Shown here: positions 4,777 through 37,342 of the stretch, piece after piece
Layout of the letters: each line of letters begins with the position of its first letter
How positions within the stretch are numbered: the first letter of the stretch is position 1
Assembly (NCBI GenBank): GCA_043228905.1
Contig: JBHGNT010000014.1
Location: 8,928,001-8,992,000 of the forward strand
From: Azolla caroliniana
Lineage: Eukaryota; Plantae; Polypodiophyta
Direction: 5' to 3'
Length of the DNA stretch: 64,000 bases
Translations under genes and position numbers: made by a program
Notes under the pieces: model-generated
What the model was told of the DNA's origin: nothing
Databases searched by the model: none
What the model saw: the letters and a program-made list of their open reading frames with translations, nothing else

Positions 4777-5241
4777 CTTTGCTTGGGTAGCCAGGAGTTG
4801 TTGCCATTTTGAAGCTGTTTTGGGGGTCGATTTTGTCGGTCTTTCCATCTTCCTTTGTTTCATGGGCTCCACCGGTGGTGCTAACAGAGTGAGCCATTGC
4901 GCCACTGCCATCCACATCTTTTTGCCATCTTTTATTGAGATGATGGTAGCGCTCAAGCCATCGGCGATCATTACCGGCCAATCCACCTGTACTCCCTCGT
5001 AGGTAGCTATGATCAAACCGGCTCTATTCCTGGGCATCGCCGGTGGTCAGGGGTATGCATGACCATACTCATGGAGTACCCGAGCAATTTCCCGAAACAA
5101 TAGGTCTTCACCGCCTTGCGTGCGGTATGCCTTGCTGCCCAGGGAGTATTCACTGAAATACCTCGTCAGCAGCTCCTGTGAAGGGTTGTCGATCGAGTAT
5201 ATTCCCCCTTCCGGTAAGCTGGTCAAGGCTCGGATGGCTTC

Positions 5242-5828
5242 TGTTAGGAAATAGGTCCCTCCGGATGGGAAGTGAGAGGAATCGAATGACGAGTACCCGG
5301 CTACGGAAGACCCGGTAAAAACCGGATGACAAGTACCCGGCAAGAGCTGGATGATGAAGGCCTGGTGAGGAGTGCTCACCGGATGAATGGACATATTCGT
5401 AAATATGTTTTCTGAGAGTCCATCGGGGCTATATTTGTAAATAGCCGAAAAGTCATATTAGTATAAATATGACTTAGGGCAAACTTAGAAAGTGGTTGTC
5501 GTTCTTGTTGGCGCAAGATTAGAGCGCAACAGTGTACAGAGAGTGTGAGAGAGAGGAAGAGGTCGTTGCCTCTGTTGTAACCGCCTCCTGTGGCGAAGAT
5601 AGCAAGCTTGAGGTCGTTGCCTCGGTGCTTTACTATTGTAGATTCTGATATAGTGATAGTTTGCAATCTGTGGGTTACCGTGGTTTTTCCCTAGTTTGGG
5701 TTTTCCACGATAACATCTTGTGTTCTCTCCTCTTCACTGTGTCGTGCATTCATTGCCCGTTTTCTGTGTTTGATTCTAAGCTCAGTTGTGGCCGAGCGTT
5801 GCGCATAGGGAGTGTGTAGTTCCTGACA
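5242..5828 (+). mobile_element. Solo LTR (copia family seen at 31399 and 55045) with 5-bp TSD GCTTC
   Basis: TGTTAGGAA...TTCCTGACA termini. GCTTC at 5237-5241 and 5829-5833. Shares the start motif and the CCGTGGTTTTTCC..GGTTTTCCAC motif with LTRs at 31399 and 55045. Confidence 0.92.
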
Positions 5829-5885
5829 GCTTCCTCATTGATGAACTCTGTGTCGATGTCTTTGACGACATTTTTCGCATCTCCG

Positions 5886-6146
5886 TGCAACGGTGCTTCG
5901 ACTATCCTCAAGAATCCCTCTAGACCATGTTGCTTCAGCCATTTCTTAGCTGCTTTTGAGAGTACCATGCATTCCATGTCGTCATTGTCGTCGGTAGATT
6001 GTGGTAAGATTGTTGCATGCAACGGTGCTTCGACTATCCTCAAGAATCCCTCTAGACCGTGTTGCTTCAGCCATTTCTTAGTTGCTTCTGAGAGTACCAT
6101 GCATTCCATGTCGTCATCGTCGTCGGTAGATTATGGTAAGATTGTT
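5886..6146. repeat. 132-bp (44-codon) tandem duplication in accessory ORF
   Basis: TGCAACGGTGCTTCGACTATCC... at 5886 and 6018; peptide MECMVLS..KKWLKQHGLEGFLRIVEAPLH occurs twice. Confidence 0.9.
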
Positions 6147-9066
6147 ACGCTTGTGTGTTCTGCATGCTCTTGCCTAATCACTCGTAATCGCCTATGTGCG
6201 CTAAGATCTCTGTGTTCATGAAATGAAAGGGACTCTGCATGGCAAAGGTTTGCTTTCTCCATGTGTGACGCCTTTTCTTGATTCCCGCGCATGCATGTCC
6301 TGTACTAATATAGCAGTCGGTTGACACGTGGTGCGTTTTTTAAAGGGCTTTAATTAGCCACCCACCACATCTTTTCAAAGTGCCTATTCGCTCCTCGCCT
6401 CTGCATGATGACCTTTTTTATTTTTTTTACAATTGAGTTTTAGTTAACCAGAAGTATCGGGTCCACAATATGGTTTGAGTCGAAACCCATTGACCCATTT
6501 GCCCATTATCTCACCGGCGAGCGTTCTGAGCCGGTATGAACCATTAAATTCCCGCGTTATCCAATACGGTCTGGTCCACCGGAACCGTAGCTTTCCCGGC
6601 ATCTGACCCATCCAGGTCTGGAACACCAGTACCGGCTTGCCGATCCCGAACCTCTTCTCATTGCCCTTCCGGTGCCGATCCACAAACGCCTTCCTTCGTC
6701 GCTGCTCCAGTTCCAACTACATGAGACTTGCTATCCGATGCTCCTTGAGTTCGCATAATGTGGCTAACCGGATTTTTTGTCTACTCCTTTTCACTTAGTC
6801 GTTCTCTAACCTGTATCCGCAAACTCGAAACCTGAAATTCGATCGGCATCACTACTTCAAGCCCAAATGCTAACCAGAATGGTGTTGACCGGATACTCGT
6901 TTTGTATGTCGTCTGGTATGTCCATAGTGCACTATGCAGCTTGGTGTCCCAATCGGTCCAATTTTCATTGACGATCTTTCACAGGATGTTTTGGAGCGTT
7001 TTGTTTGTGGATTCGGCCAGTCCATTGGCCTGTGGATAATAAGGGGTACTGCGCTTGTGTACCACGACACAGAATGTTGTTAAGCTTTCCACTACTTGAC
7101 CGAGAAAATGTCCGCCTTCATCGCTAATTAACTCGATCGGGCATCCATACCGACACCAGACGTACTCATAGAAGAACTTTGTCGTTGATGCCATAGTGTT
7201 GTCCCGCAAAGCCTTGGCTTCTACCCACTTTGTGCAATAATTGGTGGCGACTATAACATATCTATTGTCGGTTCTCATTGTGGGAGGTTTAAACGGCCCA
7301 ACGAAATCCAGCCCCCATTTCTGAAATGGTTCTAAGGGTAGCACCGGCTGGTGAGGCATCCTTGCCTATTCTGTTGGTTGGCCCATCCGTTGACATAAAT
7401 CACAAACTTTCGCATAGCGAACCGAGTCCTTCAGTGTTGTCGGCCACCATAGCCCATTGTGCCATATCTTTCTTGTTGTAGCGTCCCCGGCATGGTGCCC
7501 TCCGGCAACGCCATAGTGCGCTTCTCGTAATATTGTGTCCTTTTCGTCGCTTTGCACTACTCGCCGCCATATGCCATCCGTGCCTTTGTGGTACAGGGTG
7601 TCCTGTAGTAGACAAAAATGTCGACTTTGTATCGTTAACCGCTTCTGCTCATCCCGGTTCATCTCCTTCGGTGGGAGTCCCGTGCTTAGGAATTGATGCA
7701 TGTTGGTTGGCCACTTGTCTTCGTCAACTACCGTGTTATCAGCTGCCATTTCTGTTGTTACTTTAAACAACTCGGCATCCGGAAACTCATCCGTGACTCC
7801 ATCACCGGTTTCGCCGGAATCTAACCGGCTCAAATAATCGGCAGCCACATGCTATATTCTCGGCCGGTGATATATTTCGAACTCAAACTCTTGTAGCAAC
7901 AATGTCCATCGGGCCAGCTTGCCAATGAGCGATGCCTTTGAGACCAAATATAATAGCGTTGAGTGGTCGACATGAAATGAAAATTTCCTTCCCAATAAAT
8001 AGTGCCTGAACTTGGTAACACTGTAAATCATCCCTAAGGCTTCTCTTTCCATTGTTGAATAATTTCGTTCCGCCTGGGATAGCTTCCAGCTAGCATAGTA
8101 AACCGGTCGGTACCATTTCGGTTCAGTCAGTTGCATTAGTGCGTTGCCGATTGCTATGTCGAACGCATCAACGAACACGTGGAATTCTTTTGACGAGTCC
8201 GGTGCTTGTGATAGTAGTACTTTCAGTGCCCAGTAAGACTCATCCTCCGTATTTGTCCATTGAAACGGTGTCCGGTGAACCGCGGTATGCAACGGTGTAG
8301 CCAGATCAACCAAATAATGGAGCATTCGGCTATGCCACCGGATTTTCCCTAGAAACCGACTCAAAGCTTTGGTCGTGGATGGTGCTGGTGCTTCTAAGAT
8401 TGCTTTGACCTTATCGGGGTCTCCTGGGATCCCTTCCTTGCTGACAAGATGGCCCAGCAATGCACCGCTTGTTACTCCGAACACACACTTTGCTGGATTA
8501 AGGCTTAACCGATAACTCCTGCATTTCTCAAGACATAGCCGGAGGTGTTGGAGATGTTCTCCTTCTCGGCTATACACGGCGAAGTTGTCCAGGAATACCT
8601 GCATGAATGTTGTTGCCGATTAGGAACATGGTCTGCGGTCACTCCTTCGACCTAGACCTCAAAGTGGGTGTAGAACAACGAACAGGTGTTTAAGCGTAAT
8701 GCGTAGGGGAAGAATCCCTGTAACCTATCAATGCATAACCGAGACGGCTACAACCGAATCCCTATCACGGGTTACACTTACGTACTTAAACGCTTAGGTA
8801 TTCAAGACACACATAGTGAATTAGTCGTAACTATACACAGGAAATCAGAGAAGATAGAATTCTATTATCAGGCGTTTCTTTACATTCCCAAAATTACACG
8901 CACCTCCATCAGAGGTTTTCTACCCTTTATATACGCAGGGTCTATTTAGCCGTTCACGCTTCCTACGTGAACCGTTACATGCGTTATGTTCTTATATAAT
9001 TTCTTATTCCTACGCTTTTGTCCGTCGGTTACTCTTCCGGCGGACAACACTTGGCACCCATCTCGT

Positions 9067-11839
9067 TAATCCTCTTCCAAAATGGCCCGGATGTTCGGCT
9101 CTGCTGCGGTGTCCGCATCCGGAGGTGACGTAGGGCCCGTAGGTGCATCGTGCTGTGGCTCCTCTGTTTGGTCGGCTGGTTTCTCTCGGAGTCGCCATCG
9201 CCATGTGTGGGCGGTTCGAGTACGGTGGGCTCTTCTTGAGCTAGTGGGTTGGGCTTCGTCGTCGTCGTGCTTGCAATCGGTTGTGGCTCTGCCTCCATTG
9301 TTACGTCCTTCGTGGTGTCAGCCGTTTTTGTATGTTCCGAGGAGTGGGGCGGAGATTCCGCCTAGTCCGCACCGTTCTCCATGTGGTCTGATGATAGATA
9401 GTGTGGGCTCATGCAGCTAAACCTCTTGTTGTGTAGTGGTTTCGCTGTCTGGTCCTGTGGGGAACTCCGCTCGTCGGTCCCCACTATTCTCCATCGTTGT
9501 CATCTCTGGTGATCGGGCCTGAGGTTCCTCTTCTTCAGTTGTGCCCGGAATTGGCGGCGTGTTGGATTCCTCGTTTGTGCGCGTGTTGCCGGCTTGTGTG
9601 ATTTGGTGAAATAGATCCTCCTGACTTTCACCAAAATCGTCTAAGAGCTGCACGAGTTCTTCGGAGTGTTGGTCTGCTAGCGCACAATAGTCTTGCGTTA
9701 GGTCCTCCCGTACGGCCGCAATGCTCTCCTCATTTAGTTTATAGAACCCTCGACCGTCTTTTCACCGGTTCTCCCAGTCCGCACGATATGCGTGCAATTC
9801 CACTGCTTGGGTTGCCCACGCCATCCATCCTTTGTCCAACGCCATTTTCAATTGTGTCGTGAACCTCTCCCGATTTGTTTGGAGAAGGATCCGCACGTTA
9901 TCTGTGATGGCCTGGCAACGGTTGTGTGCGTTTTCCATCGACTTCTAGAGATTAGCGATTTCCTGTTGTTTAACCGCTGCCTCTTCCTCATACGTGGCCT
10001 TCAGGCCCGCCCACAGCTGTGATTCCTTTGCATGTTGCTCTTCTAATTTCCCCATTTCATTGTTTAGGCGGATTTCGAGCTGATGCCTTCTGTCTTGTTC
10101 GACCACCAACTGCTCATCGAACCATACCTTCTTTTTTTCTAATAAGGCCCAGAGTCCCACTATTGCCGCCTCCGATTTCTTCGCGTCCTCCCGTAATTGG
10201 GCGTTGTCCTCTTTTGTCCGGATGTGTTGAGCTACCTCCGTAGCGAGTTTCTCTTCAAGGGTTTTTACTGCCTTCTGGCCGTTAGCCCGTATCTCCTTTT
10301 CTCTGTCTGAGGATTGGCGTAGTTCTGCTCGAAGGCGGTCAATTTTTTATTCCGCTAGTTGCACGGCCCTTTTTGCTTTTGAGGCGATGGCGGTCTGGGC
10401 CTCGATTTCTTCTTTTAGAGCGTCGATGACGTGGTTCGGTGGCGGGGTTGCGTGTTGCGCCGTAGTCGCGTGAGCTTCCAACTCCGCGATGCGTGCGTTG
10501 GCTTTTTGCAGTTCGGCTTGGGTTAGTTTAACCTTCTTCCAGACATTCTTATTTTTTATGGCCATCTCCTTGGCGCCCGTGCTGACCTTTGCTAGTTCCT
10601 GATGGACTTCGACTAGGGCTGTGTTTAAGGGGGGGTATCTCCATCCCCACTCGGTGTACCCCGGCGTTCCTCTGTCTGCCGACCTTGGCTAGCCGGTCCT
10701 CATCGTCGCTCTCCGTTCTTTGTGTTAGGGCACGCTCGATCATCTGGTGTTCCGCATGCTCTTCGACCATTCGTTGGGCGGCTTTTACCTGTTGCGTTGC
10801 CAGGAACTCCATGAGCTCAAAAGAAGTACCAAACTGCAAGAGGGCACTGAACTCGTGGGCCATGTCCGGAATATCCGGATATGTCAAAACGTCGCTTTCC
10901 GCCGTCAATACGGCTTTCCCTCGTTGGGACTGGGTCGTAATAATCGGTCGTGGCCCCCGGATGACTTCGAAGGTGGTATTGGGTTCCGCTGCTGCGGAGC
11001 CGTCACCTTCGGTCGGTGTCTCTGTTGCCGTGGGGGTGTTTTTTACCAAACCCTGCCCATCTTTCCTGTCCAATCTGCGCCGTTTTGGTATGGGGCTTTC
11101 CCGCCGTGTTTCGGTGTCTGGATCTGGGGCTGCTTCCATGGAACATGTCGGTTGTTTCTCCTGTGTTGTCCGTGTGTCCAGCTGGTCGGAAGGAGGTGTT
11201 GTCCTTGAGTCTGGCTGGGCGGGTTGGGATTCCTCTTCCCACTCAGGGGCCGATAACTCCGCTAACCTGCGTTTCGCGGATTGGGGCGGGGCAATGGGTT
11301 GGCTGGGCTGCGGTGTCGGCAGGCGTCGGGGTGGAAATAGTACCGTAAGGTATTGTTGGATGATCGGCCTGAGCTTTTTGCCTGCTTGGTACGCATGCAA
11401 GCCTTCCCTTAACGTTGGCCCTGTGATGACCCCCCAAGTCCACGGCACGTCCTTCAAAGGTATCGATAATGATGCCCGCCTTCTGCTTAGGCATCCCATA
11501 TGCGTTGACATGTACGCAGCCGACTTCTAGCAGGAACTTGGCAACTTCACGGAAGAAGGGATCCGGAATCTGCTTCATTCTATAGGCCTTGGCTAAGGAG
11601 GAATATGGACCAAAATACCGTTGCAGCGCCTATGCAGGAGGTATTTAGAAATGTCTTTCTCCTAGTGAAGATAGGTCCAACTTCTTCCGGATGGAAGAGT
11701 TGGTGACCGTGTCGATTTTAAGCTTCCTGGCGATGTCCATGGCATCCAGGTGCGGAGGTGCTTCTGCGACCCGGATGTAACCATCCAGGCATTTCTCCAC
11801 GAGCCATCGGTGTAGGGCAGTAGAGTTGAAGATCGGCAT
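9067..11839 (-). pseudogene. Decayed ~900-codon accessory protein: conserved N-terminal domain, Pro/basic linker, long coiled coil, acidic tail
   Basis: Consecutive frameshifted ORF pieces from MPIFNSTALHRW (ATG 11839) through FFREVAKFL..., ELQKANARIAELEA, QEIANL to stop ~9067. Similar to 4777-6150 and 35755-36660. Confidence 0.75.
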
Positions 11840-11997
11840 CGCCAGAGTAGGTTCGTGGGGAGGAGACGGGTGGTTGCGGTGAGTTGGAGCTCTGTGATAG
11901 GATGGGGGAGAAGGTGAGGGGGAGGAGCGATGGGAGCGATGATAGCTAGAAGATGGGTTTCTGCTGTGTGCAGAAAATCTTCTGTTTTCTTCTTTTT

Positions 11998-12015
11998 GTC
12001 CCACCAAGCGTGCCA
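11998..12015 (-). promoter_or_regulatory. Primer binding site, tRNA-Arg type
   Basis: TGGCACGCTTGGTGGGAC 4 nt inside the 5' LTR; resembles the complement of the plant tRNA-Arg(UCU) 3' end (from recall). Confidence 0.8.
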
Positions 12016-15000
12016 AAAGTGTTGCCGATTAGGAACACGGTTCGCGGTCAGTCCTTCGACCTAGACCTCAAAGTGGGTGTGGAACAACGAATAGGTGTTT
12101 AAGTGTAATGCATAGGGGAAGAATCCCTGTAACCTATCAGTGCATAACGGAGACGAATACAACCGAATCCCTATCACAGGTTACACTTACGTACTTAAAC
12201 GCTTAGGTATTCGAGACACACACAGTGAATTAGCCATAGCTATACACAGGAAATCGGAGAAGATAGAATTCTATTATCAGGCGTTTCTTTACATTCCCAA
12301 AATTACACGCACCTCCATCAGAGGTTTTCTGCCCTTTATATACGCAGGGTCTATTTAGCCGTTCATGCTTCCTGCGTGAACCGTTACATGCATTATGTTC
12401 TTATATAATTTCTTATTCCTACGCTTTTGTCCATCGGTTACTATTCCGGCGGACAACAAATGTCAGGATGAACTTTCCAAATATTTCCATGATTATTCGT
12501 TGGAAGGTCGCCGGCACGGTCTTGAGCCCGAACATCATTACCACTGCGACGAAAACTCCCCATTCGGTGATGAATGCCGTCTTGTCTTGGTCGTCGGGGT
12601 GCATCCTTATTTGATTGTAACCGCTGAAACTGTCTAGAAAGTTATACACTTCATGACCGGCTACCGCGTCCAGGACTCCATCCGTAAATGGAAGTGGAAA
12701 GGCGTCAATCACTATTGCCGCATTGAGTTTTCGGTAGTCGACGCACACCTGGATCTTACCGTTCTTTTTCGGCACGACGACTATGGGGCTTAACCATGTA
12801 GCTTTTTTCATTGGTCGGATAAAACTAACTCGTAGCAACTTGTCAATTTCCTCTTTGACCTTGGCCACATAGTTGGGGTTCATTCGGTAACGCCGTTGTG
12901 CTACTGGTTTGGCATCCTTACTGAGATGTATCTGGTGTTGGTACAACTGAGGATCCAGCCCCCGCATGTCTTCATATGACCAGGCGAATACATCCCGGAA
13001 TTCCTTTAATAAAGTGATCATCGTCGTCTTGTTGTCCGGTGACATTTCCTTAGCAATATGAACCGGTCTTGCGTCGTCCCCAGTTCCTAAGTTCACTTCC
13101 TCTAACTAGGATGCTTTCATGTGTTGGGATACCGCCATCTCCCTCTCCAGGGCTTCCTGTGCTTGTCATAATTCTCTGATAGCTTCCCGATCCGGTTCCT
13201 CACTGGCATCATCTGATTGCGTTATATATGGTGACACTGCTTCTGCCACATCAATTTCAAATAGGGGTACAATTTTTGGGTTTCCTTCTAAGTATTGGTC
13301 GACCTCTTCGTCCGCAAGCCCCGTGAGCATGTTTACCCCTTCCACATATAGCGGTGTCAACCCCTTGCCGGTACTTGCTCGAGGGTGGGTAGGTACCCTT
13401 ACTTTAGTCTTTCCTCACCGGAAGGTAATCATGTTTTTCCACCAGTTTTGTTTGATATGCGTCATTTTTAGCCATGGGCGGCCCAGCAACAGCGGGTAAG
13501 CCCCTTGCGCATTGACCAGGAGAACCACCGCCGAAATGCGGAATGTGTGTCCTCCGATAGTTACGTCTAGACCCCGTATCAAACTTGTATCTGCCATCCG
13601 GAGCCAAAACTGCCAAGGCTCCTATTCTTGGATTCCCAAGGTATTACAAGTCCGTAGACTGATCAAGTTCACGCCCAATCCTCCGTCCACAATCGTCCCT
13701 GGTAGTTCTCATCCTTTGACGATGGCGGTGATTGTCGGACTGTTCATGTCCACCACTGTTGGCCCTTCTTCCGGATTTGAGAAGAACGCAGGAACCGGCA
13801 ACAGAATTGATGTGGTCATTCCAGATTTCAGCCCTTCCATAAACCGGGGCACTAGTTGTAATAACCGACCCAATGGCAGCGTAATCTGACATTCTTGTAA
13901 CGCTTGCCATGTTGGGTTTTTCGGCTGAATCGTGTTGGTGGCCTCTTTCGGCTTCTCCTTTTGTTGTTCAAGCTCAGCCACATTCTGCTCATTTTCCTTC
14001 TTCACCCACTCAGTGGCTTGCTTTCGGATTGCCTCCTGTGTTTCCCACTCCGTTGTTTTGCCTTTTGCCCTAGTGGTGACTTGTTGTATGTCGGCGACTT
14101 CTTCTACCAGCATATTTACGGCTGGTCTTTTCTCGTAGCTTTTAACCGGACATTGATTATTGTAATGTCCTTCTTGTCGGCAATAGTAGCAGTACGCTTT
14201 CCGGGTGTTGATGGATTTGGCGTTCACTCCGATACCTAGTTGAGGTCCTATTGGTGGTCGGTTGGGTACTTGGTGTGCCCTTGTCCGGCTGCCACTAGCG
14301 GTCCTCCTTTCCAACATTCCATTATTTATTGAAGCATTTTTTGTTCTGGTAACCCTGTCGGGACCGATTTTCATAATTGCCTTGATCCTCCCTCCGTTGG
14401 TTGTAATCGGGAGAGTGATCTCGGTTGTATCACTCATATCGTTCACCGTTGTAATCCCGGTAGCTATCCTGCCGGTCTCGGTCGTGAGCGTCCTTTCTGT
14501 CACTGTTCCAGATATCTTGTGACAGCCAGTAACGCTCATCTCGCTGCCAGCGTTCTTCTTCTTCCTCCCGGTTATTCCGAGGTTTGATTTGCCATACCGG
14601 TGCCGCTTGCCTGTTCAGCAAGTTATATTCGCATAGGTCTATTGTGTGTGCCCTGGAATGGCATAACATGCACTGTGTCTGCATGGTACATTCTATTGTT
14701 GAGTGCCCGGCATTGAGACAAGTCGTACATTGTATAGCTTGCCGAAAACGTAGGTCGTCTTCTGTTGGTAATGTACACTGGAGTGCCCCCATTGTTAGCC
14801 ACGAGCTTGTTTTCTCCATCTCCCTGACCCGTTCTATGACTTGGTCGATCATGCTGGTGCGGAAATCAATCACTGCGCACACTGTACGCAGGGGTTCCCA
14901 GAGTGTTGCTAGGAATATTGCTTTAACCTCTGCCTCTGGTGGTGCCCGATTGAGCTGACTGTGCATTCGCTGGAATCGGATCACGAATTGCTAAATGGTT

Positions 15001-16530
15001 TCCGTAGGTTCCTTCCGTATGGTGTAGAATAGGTTGACCATCTCCCATTGATCCACCTCCTTGTTGAAGAACTGTAAAAATCTGGTTTTTAAGTCCTTAA
15101 ATGTCGCGATGGTGCCGGGAGTGTGCGTCAAGCGCCATCGCGCGGCTGGTCCTTCCAAAGTCATGCCAAACTCTGCAATCTTTACACTACGCACACCGTA
15201 CACAAGGGTTCCTTGAGTGTGGCTAGGAATATTGCTTTAGCCTCTGCTTCCAGTGGTGCCCAATTTAGCTGGTTGTGCATTCACAGGAACCATCGCGCGG
15301 CTGGTCCTTCCAAGGTCATGCCAAACTCTGCAATCTTCGAACGTTCTGCTCGTCGGCGGTCAAACATTGCGATACATGGTTTGCTTCCCATGTTTGTAGA
15401 AATGCATAGACATGAGCTTCTGCATCCGGATCATCCCGGTACTTGGGATATTGGAACGGCATATCGTCGTCCGGTGTCGGAACACAAGCTGGTGGTGTTG
15501 GAGGTCTCCCCTCCTCTTATTTCGGTGTCAGAGGTCTTTCCACCACTTGCCAGTCTAGGGCTTCCAATTCTATTAAGTCTGGTTCTGGTGTCGGCAAGGT
15601 ATCCGACTACTCGTCCTCCGGTCCGTTTGGGGTGTCGTGGCTGCTACGGTAATTCGAATGGGCATTGCATTCGCCGTCTGAATCCGATTTGAAGGCCGAG
15701 AACGGTTCCGAATCGCCTCCCCTTGTTGCTAGTGCTTGCAGAATGGATTCCACATCCCGGAGATTGCTCAAGCTGCTTCCTTCGTCCGGTTGGGAATTCT
15801 GCTGCCCTCGGAGTGACTCCACAACCACTCGCCGGATTACTTTGGAAAATGAACAATCCGCACGGATCTCTTCAAATGCCTGCTGGAAAGCCTCTCGCTT
15901 TCGCAATCATTCGGCAAGTCTTCTCACTCGCTCCGTAACTGGGTCGTTTGTTGGTCTAGTCATCCATGCCCGTCGTTGTTCGCTGCATTTGTGCAGGAAT
16001 CGTGGTCGCCAAAAACTGTGTTATCGCTAGGGCTAGACAATGGCCTAACATAAGGTGTCCCTTTGAGACACTTCACCCAAGGGGTGTTGGGGTGAGATAA
16101 AGTTAGACCAACTATTAATGAAACCCTAATTGGTTACTAAGCGGCAAGATCATTAGTCACAATACACGCGTAGGATAAATTATACTTAGCCCAGAACGGT
16201 AATTAACAATGATTAAGATACAGAACAACAGCACTCTATTAATTATCCGCTACTAATTACAATCTAACCGGGCCCTTTTATAGGTCTCCGGCTCTAGGTA
16301 CAAACCAGTGCCAACCGGCAACCGGCTACGAACCGGTCCGGATCCAGATCGGCATACCGATTCCAGGTCCATCCGTTCGCATCTCAAAATCATAATAATT
16401 CTATAGTATATATATAATCAGCTCCTGGATATTAATTATCCCCTTCTTCCATTTTGGACTTTCCTTGCCGGCCGGTTAACAAATAATGGTGATGTGACCG
16501 GTTCTAATGTCTTTCCCTCCATGGGCTATA

Positions 16531-19500
16531 AAAGAGTGGGAATGGGTCAGAGTCCACGACTCCATCATGGACTTGGTGAAGCGGAAATGGCTTTCGACAG
16601 AGCTGGAGCCGGAGAAGCCGGTGGAGGTGCGAACGACGCACCTGGAAGATATGGCCCAGGAGGATGAGTTGGCGGAAAGCCACTATTCGAGGTTGCATTG
16701 GGCTAGAGCCACCACGGAGACCCCCGTTCGGATCGGAGACTTCAGGAGCCGGTGCTGGCGTTGGTAGACCACGGTTCGGAGATCAACCTGATCTCCATGG
16801 ACTTCTATAAGAAGGGTAAGTGGCCGATCAACACCAAGCACGGGTGGAAAATACAAGCGGCGACGCGCGCCACGAAGGAACTACACGGGACCTGCCCAAA
16901 TGTACAAGTGAAGATCGACAATGTCGAGATCGATCAGCACTTCTTCGTGCAGGAGACATCCTCATACCCGGTGATCCTCGGCGAACCGTACATCACGGTG
17001 GCACGCATGCAAATGAAGGTGCTAGATAATGGTTCGGCGTACGCCCAAGTGAAGAGCCAAGATGGGCGGCACTCCGTCCAATTTCTAACGGTGCGACCGA
17101 ACCACGAGCGCAACCGCGAAACCCTCAGCGGCGAAGACCGAGGGGATTTTTAGAGAGGGCTATCAAGGCGTGGGGCTGCGATAGTCCGGACACCCCGAAA
17201 AAACCCCACAATTGTAGCATAGGAAGGAAACCCTGTACTATAGAGAAGAAATTCTGGTTCTCCGACAACAGAGGTTGTACAATAACCGGCATTAGCGACC
17301 GGGAGAAGAAGCGGGCGTGCGGAGTCCTAGGCCCCGATGAAGTGATAGGCAGTGCCATGAAGGCGGTCTCTTTCAATGACACCTTGGGAGATCTGAGGAA
17401 CGTGCTTGAAAAAGGCCTCAGTGAAGACCGGATGATTCCGGTTAGTTCGAAACGGATGTACGAAGTCATCGCCGACTTCAGGAAAGGGGCCTTCCCGTGT
17501 TGATACAAGGTACAAGACTGTGGACCGGAAGGTAAGCCCAGTCACAACACCCTTGCCGGAGGGCAGCGAGTTATGGATGAAAGGGGTCACATCGGACCCA
17601 AGTTTACGAGATCCGGCCGGCATAGGACACCAGTTCACCGACATAACGCTACGGAAGCTCAAGGTCAGTGGGGGTGGCTTTCTAATGCCGGTGGGGGAGG
17701 AACGGTTTCGGAGAATGCTCAGGAGGCACGGGAAGGCCTTCGCATTCTCACTGGAGGAGATCGGGTGCGTAGACCCGACGGTCGTTGAAGCAATGGTTAT
17801 CTTCATTGTACCACATGTACCGTGGAATCTCAAGCCGATTCCAATACCCAAAGCTCACATCCCGAAGTTGATGGAGTTGTTGAAGCAGAAGGTGAAGATA
17901 GGCATCCTCGAGCCGTCGAGTGCCCCGTATTCAAATCAGTGGTTTACCGTGCCAAAGAAGAACGGCACGTTGCGCTTCATTCAGGACCTGCAGTCGATCA
18001 ACAAGGCGACCATTCGGAACGCTGGAATCGAACCGACCATTGACGAGTTCGGGGAGGCCTTCACCAAAAGGTCGATTTACTCGATCGGGGACCTGTACTC
18101 GGGGTATGACCAATTCCAACTAGATGAAGAGAGCATGGATATTATGACGATGCGGACTCCTCTCGGCCTGGTGCGGATGTGTACCCTTCTGCAAGGAGGG
18201 ACGAACGCGGTAGTGCACATGGTGAATGCGATGAATAAGGTGCTAAGAGACTATATCCCGGACATTACCATGCCCTTCTTGGACAACATCCTGATCAAGG
18301 GATGTCCGGTGGAAGATAGGGACAAAACGATTGAATCGGATGGGTGTCAGAAATTTGTTGCGGACCACATCGGCGACTGCGAGAAGGTGCTACAAAGGCT
18401 AGAGGGCGCGCGGCTCACCTTCTCTGGGAGAAATCGGCTTTAGGACAATCAGAAATCATGGTTATCGGACACCTGTGCTGGCCTTATGGTCGGAAACCGT
18501 CTCCAACCAAGGTAGAAGCCATCTCCACAATGAAGGGAGACTGCAAGTCGATTACGAAAGTCTGGAGGTTCTTGGGAGCTTGCGCGTTCCACCACATCTG
18601 GATCCCGCATTACGCCCACATCGCGGAGCCACTCTATGGGTTGTTGAAGAAAGGGCGCAAAATCGAGTGGAGCAGGGAGCATACGGAGTCGGTCCGAAAA
18701 ATGAAGGAAACACTTGCTGCGGCACTGCCGCTCAGGAAAGCGGTTTACAGAAAGGATGTTCCAATTTTTGTAACCGTAGACACGAGTCCGACCAGGATAG
18801 GATGGGTGATCAACCAGGAGGATGAGAATGGTATGAGGTTCCCCATCCAGTTCGGTGCGAAAGTACTCAGCGAATCGTTGTTCTATCCAATGACGTCTCA
18901 CAAAATTGGAACGGATCGAATAGATAATGATAAGTTTCAAGCAACATATTATAGATAAGGAAATCCTTGAATGGAGAGCGGTTCCATTTCCATCTACTTC
19001 TATGAACCAGAAGCCTGAAACGAGTGAATCGCTCCTGCAAGTCTTCTATTACAATGTTTTGATACAAGTGAATGGGAACAAATGTCTGTGGATATTGCGG
19101 ATGTATATGCATAAACTAAGTTTCTTTGACGTATTCGGAATGTCGCTCCTCATCCGGAGGGGATTTATTGCACTGCTTGACAGATGATTTAGTCATCGAT
19201 TTCGGATCATACCCACGATAGATAAAAAAATTCAGAATTTTTTTGTTTGAGAGATGTTTTTCGCGCTCCCTTCTCATACCGTAAGTGACATAAAGCCTAT
19301 GCACCAGTTCTTGCTTCGCCAACAAACAACGATGTGGGGAAGGAATATTAGGATCCGGCTGGAACAGAAGCATGGGATCCCAGACAAAGCGCCCCCCAAG
19401 AATCGAGTCGGTTCATCGGATCGATTCCATTGTGTTTCATATTGATTGGACGAGTCGGAGATTCCCAATTCCAAAAATTGCTCACGTAACGAGAGAGACA

Positions 19501-21205
19501 GCAAGGATATGCTTAGGTTAAACGCGAACTCTAGGGTATCATTTCGGCGGTCAAGGCCGACAGAGACTACCTGATCGGGATAGAGGTAATAATAGAGACG
19601 GACTGCCTACCGATCCTCGGTATGGTTTCCGGATGCACGACACCGGACCTAGCGATGCTCAGGTGGATCATGTACATTAAGTCCTTGAACCCAGAGATAC
19701 GACACATTTCCAGGAAGGACAATGCCATCCATGGCTGACATGCTTTTGAGAGCGAGGTTTGATGATGAGGGCGGCATGGTTTCGGAGGATGAGGAAGTCG
19801 GCGTGGACTTCTTCAAGACGGCTTACGTGACAACGAGAAAGGGGAGCACTCTGGCGCTTAACGAGTTCGACGAGGGCAAGTACGACGGGGAGTGGCTCCA
19901 GATCGCCGGGTTCCTAAAGACGATGACACCAGACGTGGCGTGGACAAAGGAAGAGGCTAACCGGATCCGGAAGAAAGCGTACCTATTCTTCCTACGGGAC
20001 AGAAGCATATGGAAGCACTCGAAGAAGCGAGACAGCATCCCACTCTAGGTAGTGGCGAGGAAGGAAGAGCAGGAGGCATTGCTGACGGTGTACCACGAGA
20101 GTCCTTGGGACGGACATCGCGAGACATGGGCCATGTTTGAGACGTTGAAGGAGAAGTATTGGTGGTCGGGACTATACCGAGACGTGCATCAGTTCGTGAC
20201 GACTTGTGAAAGTTGCCAGATGCACTCCATAATCCGACATCATGATGAGCTGCACCCGAGTTACCCGCCGACTGTCCACTTCAAGTGGATGGTGGATCTG
20301 GTGACGATGGCGATGGGAGTAGGGCAAATGTGGTACCTGGTGCTAGCACGAGAGGACCTGATGAATGAGGTGGAGGGTCGCGCATTACAGAACAAGACGA
20401 TCGCGGCCGTGTGCCGGTTCCTGATCGAGGAGGTGGTATGCCGGTACGAGTGCGTAGGGAAGATCATAGCTGACTTGGGAGAACTGGACGCACAAGAGGC
20501 CAAAGAGTTGTTTAATCAGTTGGGGGTTAAACTCTCACTCACCACGGTGTACAATCCGGAGGCGAACAGGAAGGTGGAGGCGGGCATGGGCCAATCGTCA
20601 AAGCGATAGTACGGGCATCTGGAGGCCAAGTCGAAAATTGGCCGCGGCTCCTACCTTATGCGTTGTGGGCAGACCGAACTGTGCGTAGTTAGGTAACCGG
20701 GTTCATGACAGCAAAGCTTATGTATGGCAGAAGCCGATCATGCTGATGGAGTGAATGATCTCCTCGTGGGCCGTGGTGGGCTAGAGAGACAACATGAGCC
20801 AGGAGGAGCTATTAGCGGCACGAATCCGACAGTCCGAGAGAAGACTGGAGGACGTGGACAAGCAACGGCAAAGCTACGTATGACGAGGGCAAGCAACAAG
20901 GGACGATTCGACTAGACTCACCGGGTGCGACCGAAGAAAATCGAGGAAGGTGATTGGGTTCTAGTCTACGACAGCAGCCTCGACAACTAGCACAAGGCGA
21001 TGCAAAAATTTGCGAGGAGGTGGTTCGGGCCTTACGCAGTGACGAGCGCCAACGACCACGGCACCTACCATCTCGCGGAGCTCGACGGAACAAGGATAGC
21101 CGTGGTGGTGGCCGGGAAGAGGATCAAGGCGTTCAAGAAGCGGCATGAGGATGAACCGGACCCAGAGAGCGTGGATGACAGTAACGACCGGATTGAGGAG
21201 GATGA
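16531..21205 (+). mobile_element. Ty3/gypsy pol (PR-RT-RH-INT), decayed, atypical/fungal-like motifs
   Basis: Protease LALVDHGSEINL; RT PYSNQWFTVPKKNGTLRFIQDLQ...DLYSGYDQ...GGTNAV...PFLDNILIKG; RH VTVDTSP; integrase HESPWDGH..CESCQ, KWMVDLV, RWFGPY. Confidence 0.9.
18874..19495 (-). other. ycf2: Nuclear plastid DNA insertion (NUPT): ycf2 3' fragment
   Basis: Interrupts gypsy RNaseH at KVLSE|RQQGYA. Minus-strand translation EQFLELGISDSSNQYETQWNRSDE...EDLQERFTRFRLLVHRSRW...NMLLETYHYLF resembles the Ycf2 C-terminus (FELLIHRQRW...NTLSESYQYLSNLF in seed plants). Confidence 0.75.
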
Positions 21206-21804
21206 CCAGAACGTGCGACAAACATTACGCCATCTCCTAACCAGAACGTGCGAGCAAAACCGAACATCATGGACATCTTGGAGGATGAATAGAGGGATGG
21301 GTCTGACGTACCATGGCACTGTCCCACAGGCATGCCAGGTGTTGTCTGCCAGAATTGTAACCGCCGGACAAAATGCATAAATATATTAGAAGCGTTAAGA
21401 AAAGAAATGTAACAGTTCACGCGAGAAGCGTGAACGGCTGAACACCCTGTGTATATAAAGGGCAGAAATCCTCTGTAAGAAGTAGCGTGTAATTTTTAAG
21501 CGGGAGGTTTTCTTTTCTAATAGAATCTTATCTTCTCTAATATTCGGTGTCCGTGCAACCCGTGTTGTCTTGTGTAATCTTTGTACTATGCGTAAGTGCA
21601 TCTTTGAAAGCGTAGGGTAAGAGTCAGTGTAGTAGCGCACTCAGGTTCTCGGTCGTAGCCATGAACCTTCACCCATAGGATACACGTTATTACGCAACCG
21701 ATGAAGTACGGCTCACGCCTCGTGTGACGGCCTACCTTGCCATGCAATCACCTTGAGGTCTATCTCGAAGGTTTGAAGATAGACAGTGTTCCATATCGGT
21801 AACA
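21206..21804 (+). mobile_element. 3' end and LTR (21340-21804) of an element related to 8611-12458, fused to the gypsy integrase end
   Basis: TGTTGTCTGCC...ATCGGTAACA aligns with the reverse complement of the 8611 LTR (TATATAAAGGGCAGAAA, TTGAGGTCTA). The sequence before it resembles the accessory ORF end. Confidence 0.8.
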
Positions 21805-26876: not shown

Positions 26877-28835
26877 TCATACAAGATGCCGCAACAGATG
26901 CAACAGCATCGCACTCCAAGTGTCGATCGCCCCTGGTAAGCACCAATGCAGACAGTCATTCTGCACCTTGGCATGCTTATCATGTGCAAACGGCTGGAAA
27001 TTCCTGTACGGACCCGGATGTGCATCGGGCCTCAATAATGAAGCATGTATAGTGTCGGCGATTTTGAGCTGGAAACTAAATTCTGACCTCTTGAGCAGCG
27101 TTTTACCAAACTCTTCAAGTTGAATCTTGTACATCTCTGCTGTCATACCTTCAAGAGCCACAGAGCTGCTGTCGAAGGGAAGAGTCCTGGTGCAGTTTCC
27201 ACCATTATCCCAACGCCCATTCTCAAAATGGTCAGGTGTAAATGTTCGGAAAAACACGATCCCCTTGTACTTGGATGAAATGAGATAGTCGAACACAGTC
27301 CTTAATGTGAATCTATATCCATAGTAGAACCCCACTTCTGAGACATTCAAGCTGAGGCTGTTGTGGCCACCGATCAACTTGTTTGCTTTGAAGTACACCG
27401 AGGTTTTTAAGAACCATTGCCCCGAAGATAGGACAATGTAATCATATTTGTGCAAGGAAGATGCCCAACTTTGGTCTACCTTATCCAAATGCAGTTTCTC
27501 TATGCCCTTTGCAAAGCCCTCAGCATCATCTTCAGTGCCTTGAACAAGGAACGGAGCCCATATAATGGCCAAAGTGAAATTATAGGATCGGAAATACCAC
27601 TGGATATTCTGATCTAGATCATCCCGGTACAGGTTTTCAGGAACCTCAACCTGTGCTTCATCACAGAGAGACATGCAGGAAGTTAAAAACACATACTGTT
27701 TAATTCATCTACCCAATAATCTGAACATCCAATAATTTACCACCACCACAGGGGGCATGTGTCAAGAGAACTTCTCTCAAAATCATGGATTCTTTCAGGC
27801 ATGAAAGTAGAAGTTGAATGGGAGGAGGAGGTTGGGTACCTGGGACAGTGAGCAGAGGAAAGATTGAAAATGGTTCCGAGCTATGGAGTCTCCAATAAAT
27901 GCCCAGGATTTCCCAGTGACGAGAGTTAAGTAGTGCTTGGCATCAAACAAAGGTAGATCGCAATCATTAGGCTTCCATCGCCAATACAAGTACTCGTGAT
28001 CCGGTCTTCCATTTTTCAGGCAATTTTGGTGCTCTTGGATGAAATGGCAGGTGGTATTTGTGTATCCCGGCCCAGCCGGGTTTGGGATCCAGTCTCCTCT
28101 CCAGATGTTGCACCCCCCTACAAAATGAATCCCCATATCATCTCTCAAACACCGTGAATGAGTTGGAATAATCAAGTAGGATTTAAGGTTAAAAAAGCAT
28201 CTTAAGTTAGCAAGCTGAGATTTGAACGAGAGTGAAGCTACTAAGCTTTGGCTGCCATCATCACTCTTATGGTCCACTTATCATACATATCCTCTCTCAC
28301 TCTCACTCAAAAGTAAATGGCCAAAATCAAGGCAAAGCTTCAGGTTCATTCAGCAAAAAACATCTAAAACTAACACAAAACGATGAGCACAACAGGTACC
28401 TACCTACCTACTGAGACCTCGTAAATTTTATATTATATAAGCTACTGAGTCCTAAGTAGTCTTTTGGTGAGCAAAGGACGGCTTACCCACATTGAAATCG
28501 ATAAGATTTGTAAGATCTGGAGGAGGAGGAGGAGGTAGATGTGGCGGTGGCGGTGGGTATTGAGGATCGGCAAGGCTTTGGCTTTGGCTTTGGCTTTGGA
28601 TGGAAGAAGCAGAAGTGGGCGTACTGGAGAAGAAGAGAATGCGAGCAAAGATGATGGGCAGGGCGAGCGCCAAGCAAGCAATGATGAGCAGCTTCTTTAG
28701 CTTCCAAGAAGAAGAAGAAGAAGATATTATGTTTGCAGCTTTGATAGGAGGAGAAGGAGGCGAGGATGCAACATCTAGACCACTTACAAGGGAATAGCCA
28801 CCACCGACGACGCCCACCATCTTCTTCAGCTCCAT
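26877..28835 (-). CDS. TRICHOME BIREFRINGENCE-LIKE polysaccharide O-acetyltransferase (TBL/DUF231), 3 exons: 28835-28487, 28117-27840, 27650-26877; 466 aa
   Basis: GT-AG introns with matching phases, 1401 nt open. N-terminal TM helix LLIIACLALALPIIF, Pro-rich stem, GCNIWRGDW/CLKNGRPD TBL domain, catalytic GDS (FIGDSIARN) and DxxH (NDCLHWCLPG). Motifs resemble the AXY4/TBL22-27 group. Confidence 0.93.
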
Positions 28836-33289: not shown

Positions 33290-36200
33290 TGTGGTTACGT
33301 AGGAGGGTACGATAGGGCCAAGTAGGCTGATTAGTTACACGATACTCGGCCACAACCGGTATTTTCCTTACGACTTAAGAATAGCCGAAATGACAGTACA
33401 AATTACAGAAACAGACACAGAGGTGACCCAATAAGTACAGTAACCATTCGGTTAAGTGCGTGCCCACTTAAGTGCACTATTCTATTAAGTGCGCTTTTTA
33501 TAGGCATAAAAATCCAGATCAAGAAAATTACATTGTTTCAGGACAAAATTACATCAAACAAAATTAGAACTAAGTTCCAAACTTTCAAAAACAAGAAAAT
33601 CATCATCAAAAATAGAAATTGTTCCATACATTATTTCTACCTCTCCAATCATTAGGAATGCCAAAGCACTAGGAAAATAAGTGTTATCATATTAGATGCA
33701 CAAGCAAAATTCCCTATTAGAAGGTTTATTTCGTATGTTGAGGATCCAACTAATGCACAACCAACAAAATGTTCTATTAGAAGGTTGATTTCTTATGTTC
33801 GAGGAGCTAATTTCATGTAAAAAGCCCGATCATCATGAAAAAAATCACGATTTCTTATGTTAGAGGAGCTAATTTCATGTAAAAAGCCTGATCATCATAA
33901 AAACAATTCATGATTTCTTATGTTAGAGTAGTCAATTTACAAATAAAATTGATAATTAAAATAACATTGACAAAGATTTACAAATCAATCTTTGAAGAGA
34001 ACCAACAATTTATTCAATTATTGCAATGTTTATTTTGAAATTTATGTTACAAATCAATGCTTTCATAGAAACCTTCACAAATGTTTATAAAAAGCTTCAC
34101 AAATTTCTATTACAAATCATTTTTTAATAGAAACCTCCATAAATGTTTGTAAAACCATTCATAAAATTCTGTTACAAATCATTTTTTAGAAGAAACCTTC
34201 ATAATGTTTTCCAAATATTGACTAATTTCTATTATAATTATACATATTTTCAGAAAACATACATGATACAAATTTCTACTATAATTATGCATATTTTCAG
34301 AAAACATGATTTATAAATAGTCGCAACAAATTTTGGCAGTGATGTATGCATCAACGGTGAACAACAACGTGGGGAGCAACATGGGAGTGATTAGAGTATC
34401 AACATTGTCGTGCCTTTCGGCTCCGGATCGTTGTGTGAGTTGGGTGGGAACCGCCGAGGTTTTGGACTAGGAGGAAGAGGAATACAACTTAAGGCTAGTT
34501 ATGAATAGTAGAAAGAGAAGTAAGATAGCAATCTCGTGAATCCCACGAGTTTAGTGTATTTAAAACAATATTTAGATTATAAGAGTAATTTAGATGGCAA
34601 AATTCGTGAATCCCACGAATATAGTAGATTGATCAATCCTTGTATATTAATCAACAACCTTATACATATTTCTCTCCTCCTTATATAAAGATGGAAGAGG
34701 CTAAGCATGGCTTCATGCTTTTTCACAAAAAGTGTCCATGCACACTAAATGTGTATGTGATGCTTTGTCATTTCCTAAGTATAGGGCTCATGCACGCTAG
34801 ATGTGCATGAGTCACTTATAATGTCACGTGTAAATAAAATATTCACACTCTAAAGAATACATGATTTTTACCTTTTAATAAAGGTATGTGTAAATAAAGG
34901 TCTTATACGTATTAAATCTATATGTATAATATTAAAGATAAGTTATTACAATGATAAAGTTGAGGTTTATCTGCGTGGAGGTGTAGGGTTTGAATCTTGC
35001 CCTATGCACGTGGTAAATATTTTGATATATTATTTATTTATTTATATGTATCTAAAATCGGATATATTATTTTATGGTTTTCACGTAGTGTGTGGAATAC
35101 ACTACGACAACGTGGGTATGATCATAATCATGGAGTGATTAGAGTGGATGTAGGTTCGGTGTTTTCTGAAAATGTACAGAGAGAAACATTTTTGGGGGAA
35201 AAAAATTTCATGTAAAAAGGCCTAAGTGCGCGGCTCGGTTAAGTGTGCACTTTGGCACTTAACCGAATGGTTAATGTATGTATATTGATTACGAAATAAA
35301 ATTGATTACAAGGCAACACATGGCGATTATACTCGTCACACTCTCTTATATTATAACATATGCATATATATATTCACCCTTTTTCTTCTATTATTCCATG
35401 ATTTATATAGCCTATTGTGCTTCAAGAACTTTCCCTAATTAACGGCCTTTATTCTCGGTTGCATATATTTTGTTCTACCTTCCTCTGCTATGCGTGCTTG
35501 GCCGATTCCCTTTTTACCTACTTGACCTACTCATCTCTTTAGATTTGTTTCACACCTCATGCCCTTTTGTCCCACGGATAACACATGGCACGCCCTGGGA
35601 CAGTGCCTTGCACGTCGAACTCAAAAAGCACTAAATTTTTTTCGAAATCGTGAAATTGAAAAGAGCCGAAAATTGATATTGTACAGTTAAGTCTTCTTCC
35701 AAAATTGATGTGATGCCCTCCGGTTCTCCGACTACCCCAGTTTGAGATCGGCCTTCAAATTGGCCCTTTGCTCCGTGGTCTCTTGGGATTTCGTTCGTTG
35801 TGCCAACTCGGAGTCGCCTCCTCCTGGGTTAGCTCGGCCGTAAAATCGAGTTGTTGGTCTGTAATTTCCGTCGTGGCGCCCGTAGCCCCTTTCTCTTGCT
35901 TTGTCTCTTTGGTTTGTTCAACCACTTGTTCCCTTTCCAAGCTTAGGCGTGGCCCCTCTTCTTCTTTTGGCTCTTGGGTTGTTACCTCGGTCGTCAAGGC
36001 CCTTGTTGTGGCTTCTGCTTCTTTCTTAACTCGAAGGTGTTCGTGTTTATAGCCTTTGGTTTCAATCATGAGCAATAGTTGATCATCATTAAATTCCTCG
36101 AGGAGGTTTCCAATGGCCATGGTGTGTGTTCGGGCCAAAGCTTGTAATTCCTCAGTGTGGTCTTCACGGAGGATCTTAATGTTATTCTCGTCCATCTTGT

Positions 36201-36660
36201 AAAAACCACGACCCTCTTTTTTCCGATTTTCGGCGTCTGCTCACAAGATTTGCAATTCGGCTGCTTGAGCCGACCATTCATTCCATCCTTGAGCTAGTGC
36301 CGCTTCGACTTTTTGATTCAGCTTTAGCTGGTGCTTCGCCACTGGTGCCTTCACTCGGGTTTCGCCCATTTCATATTTGGCCCGGAGAGTGTTCATTTCC
36401 TCTTTAGCCGTCACAGCACCCCGTTCGAGCTTGGCTTTGAGGATCTCGCACGATACGGTAACTCCGACGATCTTTTCTTCCATTTCCTTCATATGTAAGT
36501 CATAGTGTCAGAGGAGTTGATTTGAATTATCGGCTAACTCCTGCAGATATCGGTCACGTTGATGTTTGAGTTCTAGTATCTAGGAAATTTGCAATTGGTG
36601 GAGGGACTCCAACAATGTATATTTCTCCTGCTCAACTTCTTTTAACAATTGATCATGCAC
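33290..36660 (-). mobile_element. 3' end of an element of the 8611 group: accessory-ORF C-terminus and 3' LTR (inner end 35583), LTR split by a mariner-type element
   Basis: ORF pieces 35755-36492 (GRGFYKMDENNIKILREDHTEELQALA) match the 8611 ORF (KLNEESIAAVREDLTQDYCALA). LTR end CTTTTGTCCCACGGATAACA. Left boundary approximate. Confidence 0.7.
33438..35276. mobile_element. Non-autonomous Tc1/mariner (pogo-like) DNA transposon with TA TSD
   Basis: TA|CAGTAACCATTCGGTTAAGTGC ... GCACTTAACCGAATGGTTAATG|TA. Subterminal TAAGTGC repeats, AT-rich interior with ~60-bp tandem repeats, no transposase ORF. Confidence 0.88.
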
Positions 36661-37342
36661 AGGTTGTGTAAGATGGGGTTTGCGGCCTCCAAGTCCGACT
36701 CTTCATTGTTCATCAGGAAGGGTCCAAAGGGTCAGGTATGCATCCTACTATATGTCGACAACTTGGTCGACCGGACCTGAACTCATTGAAATCGGCCAAG
36801 TGAAGTCCCAACTATTGAGAGCATTTGAGATGAAGGACCTGGGGGACCTTCATTACTTCCTCGGGATTGATGTGATCCGAACCCCCAAAGGCATATTGAT
36901 CAACCAACGCCATTATGTGCTGAATATGCTATTCAAGTTCAGGATGACGGATTCCCGACTGGTCTCAACACCCCTTGATCGGAATTTGAAGCTACGTCTT
37001 GACTCCGGATTGACCTATAAGGAGAAACGGTTCCGACAAATTGTTGGAAGCCTCATATACCTGACCATCAGCTATTCGGTTGGAGTTATAAATCAATACA
37101 TGCAATGATCGACCGTCGGGAACCTTTAGTGTGCACATCAACTATTGAGATACGTGAGTGGCACTAAGGATCGGGGACTGTCGTACCGACATGCTATAAT
37201 CAAACAGTTAGTTTGTTATACATATGACGACTGGGCTGGTGATGCGTGAAATCGTTGGTCAACGTCCGACTTTACATTTTCTCTTGGGAGCACAATTGTT
37301 GCGTGGAGCAGAGAAGCAGTAGATAATGGCTCCGTCAAGCAC

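What the first reader, a model, noticed from the sequence alone, without database searches (positions are those of the whole stretch)
8611..12458. Non-autonomous retroelement that kept only the accessory gene and inserted into the RT of an autonomous relative
Seen: a 3.85-kb element with LTRs, PBS and TSD whose interior is a single ~900-codon ORF starting ~160 nt after the PBS, with no gag or pol. A diverged homologue of that ORF lies after the integrase in the element it interrupts. Inference: a satellite or complementing partner (bipartite system) in which one component supplies gag-pol and the other an accessory factor. Retention of the ORF suggests selection.
Basis: partly seen in the sequence, partly recalled or inferred. 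Interest (0 to 1): 0.72.

Follow-up and report, generated by a model that had tools for sequence, protein, structure and literature searches.

The report
Gag-pol-deleted retrotransposon keeps VANC-like gene
This is a decayed copy of a common plant jumping gene that lacks its replication genes, likely through a one-off copying slip, and keeps only an extra gene found across its family, whose protein is predicted to fold like a known transposon anti-silencing factor.

Summary
The 3.85-kb element is real: 439-bp LTRs (94% alike), 5-bp TSD, tRNA primer site, no gag-pol, inserted in a Ty3/gypsy RT. Its ~925-codon ORF is broken (at least 5 stops, several frameshifts). A bipartite system is not supported. 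In relatives the ORF is the normal 3' extra gene of complete gag-pol elements: integrase lies just upstream in 28 of 37 testable loci, a primer site in 0 of 54. Contigs from three DNA runs continue into autonomous-type sequence on both sides of the junction. The host's LTR is unrelated. The deletion starts at the end of a full 18-nt primer site, which fits a faulty second-strand jump during reverse transcription. The gene is strongly conserved in complete elements (dN/dS 0.12-0.16; 0.01-0.03 in the N-terminal domain). Two AlphaFold models of that domain match VANC21 best (Z 6.5 and 7.1; next 3.9 and 2.7), a modest lead to a DNA-binding anti-silencing role. The family has a tRNA-end copy in place of a polypurine tract. 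This scan noted that trait before in this genome, and VANC-fold retrotransposon genes in other genomes.

The parts
12020..12458 (-). 5' LTR of the inner element (439 bp, TG...CA)
11998..12015 (-). 18-nt primer-binding site, complement of a tRNA-Arg-type 3' end; complete relatives keep only 12-14 nt of it
11998..12001 (-). Deletion junction: primer site joined to DNA that follows the integrase in complete elements, with a 2-nt overlap; gag-pol and likely the first ~10 codons of the ORF are missing
9066..11839 (-). Decayed extra ORF (~925 codons; at least 5 stops, several frameshifts)
11330..11839 (-). N-terminal ~170-aa helical domain, most conserved part, predicted VANC21-like fold (modelled on intact relatives)
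9600..10520 (-). Likely coiled-coil region and conserved C-terminal block of the ORF
   Evidence: coiled coil judged by eye from charged heptad-like sequence
9050..9057 (-). Remnant of the tRNA-end-like site that replaces the polypurine tract; 31 nt shorter than in the related copy at 21.3 kb
8611..9049 (-). 3' LTR
8606..8610 (.). Target-site duplication, left copy
12459..12463 (.). Target-site duplication, right copy
12464..16481 (-). Host element: 5' LTR (~16019-16481), gag, protease, first part of RT
6459..8610 (-). Host element: rest of RT, RNase H, integrase
4822..6100 (-). Host's own 3' extra ORF (diverged subfamily, like P0080/P0074), split by an insertion and truncated
21240..21804 (+). 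Last codons of a related extra ORF, full tRNA-end-like site and related LTR, abutting an unrelated pol gene

Best explanation
The element is a decayed, gag-pol-less derivative of an abundant plant Ty3/gypsy family whose complete members read LTR-PBS-gag-pol-extra ORF-LTR; it likely arose in one faulty reverse-transcription cycle and likely kept the extra gene passively. Inferred steps: plus-strand strong-stop DNA, ending in an 18-nt copy of the tRNA primer, jumped onto an unfinished minus strand at a 2-nt microhomology about 160 nt before the conserved ATG. That removed gag-pol and likely the ORF's first ~10 codons. Family proteins supplied in trans then integrated it by chance into a related element's RT, where it decayed neutrally. 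Shown: the gene is strongly conserved in complete elements. Predicted: its N-terminal domain has a VANC/PMD-like fold; the protein would be a nuclear, coiled-coil DNA-binding factor that helps the family escape silencing (about 35% for that specific role).
For: Complete architecture in L036 (1886-aa gag-PR-RT-RH-INT, then a 976-codon open frame) and in other long loci. Integrase within 1.2 kb upstream in 28 of 37 loci with 800 nt or more upstream. Of the other 9, 7 keep spacer-like DNA beyond this element's breakpoint and none has an LTR match upstream. No primer site upstream in 0 of 54 loci examined. Alignments to four relatives (L019, L022, L050, L066) begin at element position 460, the primer-site end. 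Eight complete-type loci carry only 12-14 nt of the primer site, this element 18. In 3 of 3 DNA runs, contigs leave the window's sequence at the junction into autonomous-type DNA: 25/16/16 contigs on the LTR side, 3/5/8 on the ORF side. Five stops observed against 2.8-5.4 expected at the LTR mutation rate. dN/dS 0.12-0.16 in 6 unsaturated pairs of 8 tried. HIV-1 deletions whose junction is a tRNA copy are described (PMC12657518, passages). Fold: VANC21 first of 48,161 chains for both models, Z 6.5/rmsd 4.1/175 aligned and Z 7.1/rmsd 4.1/172 aligned. No transmembrane segment; a basic NLS-like motif in 3 of 4 intact proteins.
Against: No genome was held, so deleted copies could not be counted. 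Relatives come from other samples and were chosen by similarity, best 80 of 133. Only 2 nt of the primer site lie beyond both parents, and a later small deletion could also give them. A GT sits in the complete primer site and an AG 3-5 nt before the breakpoint, which also fits splicing. Post-insertion decay is expected of any copy and does not test earlier selection. The VANC Z-scores are under the tool's caution level of 8. Foldseek gave E 2.8 (TM 0.47) for one model and did not list VANC21 among the rows shown for the other. No PMD, DUF1985 or Transposase_32 HMM hit in 89 members, no sequence hit to VANC21, Atlas scores 0.80-0.87 are leads only, and the two models share one alignment.
Confidence: 0.62

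Rival explanations
1. Retrocopy of a spliced subgenomic RNA: the family would express the extra ORF, env-style, by splicing from a donor in the primer site to an acceptor before the ORF, and that RNA was packaged and copied.
For: Complete primer sites continue into GTGAG/GTGAT/GTATC, a donor-like context. A conserved CTAG lies 3-5 nt before the breakpoint. Splicing of a 3' extra ORF is reported for barley Bagy2 (review PMC7264820).
Against: The acceptor lacks a U-rich tract. It would fall inside the likely coding N-terminus: a conserved Met-x-His/Arg-Arg start lies 59-111 codons upstream in 33 of 50 loci (the open-frame control is weak, as another frame is open in 39 of 50). A purine run plus TTAAA-like box in 33 of 46 spacers suggests an internal promoter instead.
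Confidence: 0.15
2. One reading: an amplified non-autonomous subfamily that keeps the accessory gene under selection and supplies it in trans to gag-pol elements.
For: The element transposed as a unit (TSD, two LTRs). The ORF shows purifying selection against its closest relative, dN/dS 0.05 over 126 codons. A VANC-like factor could act in trans.
Against: Complete elements already encode the gene. That dN/dS reflects shared ancestry with complete elements. No relative shows the deleted layout (0 of 54). The host LTR is unrelated. The second-strand priming site is largely deleted in this copy.
Confidence: 0.11
3. A complete element inserted first and lost gag-pol later by a chromosomal deletion.
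For: The copy is old and decayed and has another microhomology-type deletion near its 3' LTR.
Against: The break falls exactly at the primer-site end, and the site is longer than in complete relatives, which a DNA-level deletion would not predict.
Confidence: 0.12

Closest known systems
Athila (non-chromovirus|OTA|Athila; Neumann et al. 2019, PMC6317226, passages and supplementary file 5 read)
   Same: One gag-pol ORF without aRH or chromodomain, 5-bp TSD, long extra ORF after pol, primer site a few nt from the LTR.
   Different: tRNA-Arg-type primer site (Athila: Asp 72%, Asn 12%); no polypurine tract; extra ORF has no ATHILA or Transposase_32 HMM hit and no transmembrane segment; RT tree not built.
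Tat/Ogre extra ORFs with PMD plus coiled coil (PMC4408406, passages; PMC6317226)
   Same: Extra ORF with a PMD-like lead followed by a likely coiled coil; tRNA-Arg primer as in Ogre and TatIII.
   Different: No aRH domain; ORF in sense after integrase; no PF10536 hit.
VANC21 of VANDAL21 Mutator elements (PMC5735166, passages; PDB 9lnk/9lnj; VANC-MAIN structural link in PMC13547354, passages)
   Same: Best structural match of the N-terminal domain; accessory, non-catalytic, with coiled coil.
   Different: Carried by a retrotransposon; about 10% identity; no target-motif array seen in a simple 8-mer count; function untested.
Defective HIV-1 proviruses from aberrant second-strand transfer (PMC12657518, passages)
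   Same: Internal deletion whose junction is defined by a copy of the tRNA primer.
   Different: There the copy runs past the normal stop; here it appears to end at 18 nt and extends a naturally short site.
Non-autonomous LTR derivatives such as LARDs, TR-GAG and Dasheng (recalled, not read)
   Same: LTRs and primer site kept, polymerase functions lost.
   Different: Those are amplified families; amplification is not shown here, and the retained gene is the 3' accessory ORF.

Membership tests
LTR retroelement insertion | Paired TG...CA LTRs, primer site, TSD | tested here: met
Bipartite / satellite-helper pair | Shares LTR and cis signals with the proposed partner (host) | tested here: not met
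   LTR score 17-20 against shuffle maxima 28-29
Bipartite / satellite-helper pair | Gag-pol partner lacks the accessory gene | tested here: not met
   complete relatives carry both; window chimera rejected
Bipartite / satellite-helper pair | Deleted form is multi-copy | tested here: inconclusive
   no genome held; contigs show only autonomous continuations but cannot show absence
Bipartite / satellite-helper pair | ORF under selection among deleted copies | not testable with these tools
   only one deleted copy in hand; it is broken
Athila (parent family) | No aRH, no chromodomain | tested here: met
   Pfam on the 1886-aa polyprotein
Athila (parent family) | 5-bp TSD and 3' extra ORF | tested here: met
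   table
Athila (parent family) | tRNA-Asp/Asn/Ala primer site | tested here: not met
   site complements a tRNA-Arg-type end
Athila (parent family) | RT/RH/INT phylogeny with REXdb references | not tested
   reference FASTA too large to read
Tat (TatI-III, Ogre, Retand) | aRH domain | tested here: not met
env-like ORF | Transmembrane segment | tested here: not met
   maximum 19-residue hydropathy 0.9-1.3 in 4 intact proteins
VANC / PMD / DUF1985 | Shared fold | tested here: inconclusive
   top match, Z 6.5 and 7.1 over 172-175 residues, below Z 8; Foldseek weak
VANC / PMD / DUF1985 | Pfam domain match | tested here: not met
   0 of 89 members
VANC / PMD / DUF1985 | Repeated target motifs in non-coding DNA | tested here: inconclusive
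   8-mer counts in 5 regions gave at most 2-3 copies
VANC / PMD / DUF1985 | Sequence-specific binding and demethylation | not testable with these tools
   needs experiment

The most novel reading that the evidence does not exclude
The family's 3' gene is a VANC-type, sequence-specific anti-silencing protein carried by an LTR retrotransposon of a seed-free plant, and tRNA-jump derivatives like this one put it directly under the LTR promoter, forming helper copies that keep the family unsilenced in trans.
Probability: 0.12. Interest if true: 0.78.

Novelty: new variant of a known kind. Interest (0 to 1): 0.4.

Why it matters
As a single broken copy it is ordinary. Two things carry value. The function of plant retrotransposon extra ORFs is an open question (PMC7264820), and this family offers intact, strongly conserved genes with a concrete, testable lead: a VANC/PMD-like DNA-binding fold, so far tied to anti-silencing in DNA transposons. 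The junction also records how the primer is copied in a lineage that has a short primer site and a tRNA-end copy in place of the polypurine tract. I found no paper describing a VANC fold in such an ORF or an accessory-gene-only plant LTR family (searches). The VANC21 structure paper was not held and may mention it.

Tried and rejected
No whole genome was held, so no copy count. Early lead that the gag-pol element at 16.5-21.8 kb is an ORF-less partner with the same LTR: rejected, because its pol is 23-26% identical to the family's, 0 of 46 relatives of that pol end in the ORF's terminal motif, and the DNA before the LTR matches the ORF's 3' end. None of the 24 contig pieces listed (of 1504 laid) bridges the junction, and the depth arithmetic leaves little for positions 12000-12001; contigs cannot show absence and these runs hold at most 36% of the element's words, so this is not used as evidence. 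Summed depth is not a copy number. No RNA holder listed; the one RNA-labelled run laid gave 0 contigs. No relatives in viral contigs, none for the tRNA-end pattern there. No Rfam hit in L036 or L005, no tRNA gene in the window. Foldseek against viral models found nothing. Weak Pfam hits (VP30, HR1, Myb) were below cut-off and set aside. Paper search for the primer sequence gave 0. Not held: Tanaka 2026 VANC21 structure paper, Vicient 2001. Neumann additional files 1 and 3 were too large and may list this lineage. Two cross-subfamily dN/dS pairs were saturated. No complex prediction was run.
Full report
Observation. The element lies on the minus strand from 12458 to 8611. The LTRs are 439 bp and 94.3% identical (K2P about 0.06), end in TG...CA and are flanked by the same 5 bases. 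It splits the RT of a Ty3/gypsy host: an intact related polyprotein aligns on both sides without loss. A primer site follows the 5' LTR after 4 nt, and an ATG lies about 160 nt further. The ORF span is about 925 codons, but it is broken. The longest open frame is 325 aa, three in-frame segments hold 5 stops in 803 codons, and frames change near 11440, 10630 and in the tail. The host's post-integrase homologue is real but only 30-40% identical and truncated. The window is from a land plant (a PC-Esterase gene); unchecked scan notes call it a fern.

What the ORF is. The N-terminal part found 19 relatives, with intact members of 803-970 aa. A wider search gave 325 hits, including a 1072-aa protein of the host's subfamily with the same N-terminal domain, C-terminal block and terminal motif. 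A metagenome scan gave 133 loci, of which the best 80 were kept. The long ones show gag-PR-RT-RH-INT directly upstream; in L005, L024, L025, L035 and L036 the RT is 72-82% identical to the host's. L036 holds a 1886-aa polyprotein without aRH or chromodomain hits, then the extra ORF. Integrase lies within 1.2 kb upstream in 28 of 37 loci with enough DNA. Seven of the other 9 keep spacer-like DNA past this element's breakpoint and none shows an LTR upstream. None of 54 loci has a primer site upstream. The ORF is therefore the ordinary 3' extra gene of complete elements.

The junction. Alignments to L019, L022, L050 and L066 begin at element position 460, the last 2 nt of the primer site. Upstream of that point these relatives continue into the post-integrase spacer. 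Eight complete-type loci have only 12-14 nt of tRNA complement; this element has 18. The same 3' end occurs in 2 bacterial tRNA-Arg genes among 30 matches; the plant tRNA itself was not seen. In 3 DNA runs, contigs break away at the junction on both sides into autonomous-type sequence, and 14,000-18,000 mostly diverged contigs per run lie on the 5.9-kb region in three of the four runs laid, so complete elements of this family are common in that organism. A primer site lengthened to the tRNA copy limit and joined through a 2-nt overlap is what a misplaced second-strand jump would leave; a related mechanism is described for HIV-1 (PMC12657518, passages). Splicing is the main rival, because a donor-like GT and a nearby AG exist. 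Against it, the break seems to fall about 10 codons inside the likely true N-terminus (weak frame control).

No partner. The host LTR scores no better than shuffles against this LTR. The LTR at 21340-21804 is related (score 135 against a shuffle maximum of 24) and follows a pol gene with no extra ORF, which first looked like the predicted partner. That pol is only 23-26% identical to the family's, 0 of 46 of its relatives end in the ORF's terminal motif, and the 80-100 nt before the LTR match the ORF's end. It is a chimeric junction.

Selection. Among intact complete copies, dN/dS is 0.12-0.16 overall and 0.011-0.029 in the first 170 codons (6 usable pairs of 8). This copy gives 0.05 against L022, which reflects shared ancestry. 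Its 5 stops match the 2.8-5.4 expected from the LTR mutation rate. Retention of the ORF needs no selection after the deletion; amplification of the deleted form remains uncounted.

Likely function. AlphaFold models of two subfamilies (29% identical) are confident (pLDDT 84 and 82). VIA-align ranks VANC21 first of 48,161 chains for both, over nearly the whole domain: Z 6.5, next 3.9; Z 7.1, next 2.7. Foldseek supports this weakly for one model and does not list it for the other. Atlas leads are PMD, DUF1985, Transposase_32 and ATHILA at 0.80-0.87. Pfam and PDB sequence searches find nothing. VANC21 binds a short motif and demethylates its family (PMC5735166, passages), and VANC resembles MAIN structurally (PMC13547354, passages). 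With no transmembrane segment, an NLS-like motif and a likely coiled coil, a nuclear DNA-binding protein is the best reading; anti-silencing is a plausible, untested role.

Second-strand priming. All 14 loci that reach the 3' LTR carry a near-copy of the tRNA 3' end 2 nt before it and no polypurine tract; a fifteenth contig ends before the site. Three such sites are in the window. This element has lost 31 nt of it, so it is probably unable to move again. I saw this trait, before the look-up showed many earlier scan notes on it. The VANC-fold match also preceded notes on similar genes in other genomes. These notes are unchecked and are not counted as support.

Papers seen: PMC6317226 passages and supplementary file 5; PMC7264820 main text; passages of PMC13547354, PMC12859917, PMC11728184, PMC5735166, PMC12657518, PMC4408406, PMC1142308; others as listings only. 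Verdict: a real but probably accidental non-autonomous derivative; the lasting interest is the family's conserved VANC-like gene.

Noticed in passing
window 37342-41088 (+): A second 3.75-kb LTR element without detected gag-pol: ~340-bp LTRs 89% alike, 5-bp TSD, similar primer site after the same 4-nt spacer, full tRNA-end site before the 3' LTR, and an internal 25/38-nt tandem array at 39417-39950.
   Followed up: partly
window 16500-21804 (+): PR-RT-RH-INT of a different Ty3/gypsy lineage (relatives in Riccia) joined at about 21240 to the 3' end and LTR of the extra-ORF family; a chimera or nested-deletion product.
   Followed up: partly
window 35570-36580 (-): C-terminal part of another extra-ORF homologue followed by a tRNA-end-like site and a short LTR start.
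   Followed up: partly
L005, L019, L024, L036, L066 spacers: A purine run of 18 nt or more (35 of 46 loci), often followed by a TTAAA-like box (33 of 46), lies between integrase and the extra ORF: possible internal promoter or central polypurine tract.
   Followed up: partly
window 57900-59469: 211-bp inverted arms around an array of 51-bp palindromic repeats; looks like a non-autonomous DNA transposon.
   Followed up: no
window 26877-27704 (-): Host gene exon of the PC-Esterase (TBL-like) family, E 4.5e-67.
   Followed up: no
window 50303-54403 (-): Decayed chromovirus-type Ty3/gypsy with chromodomain.
   Followed up: no
window 5886-6146: 132-bp tandem duplication at the start of the host's extra ORF.
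   Followed up: no
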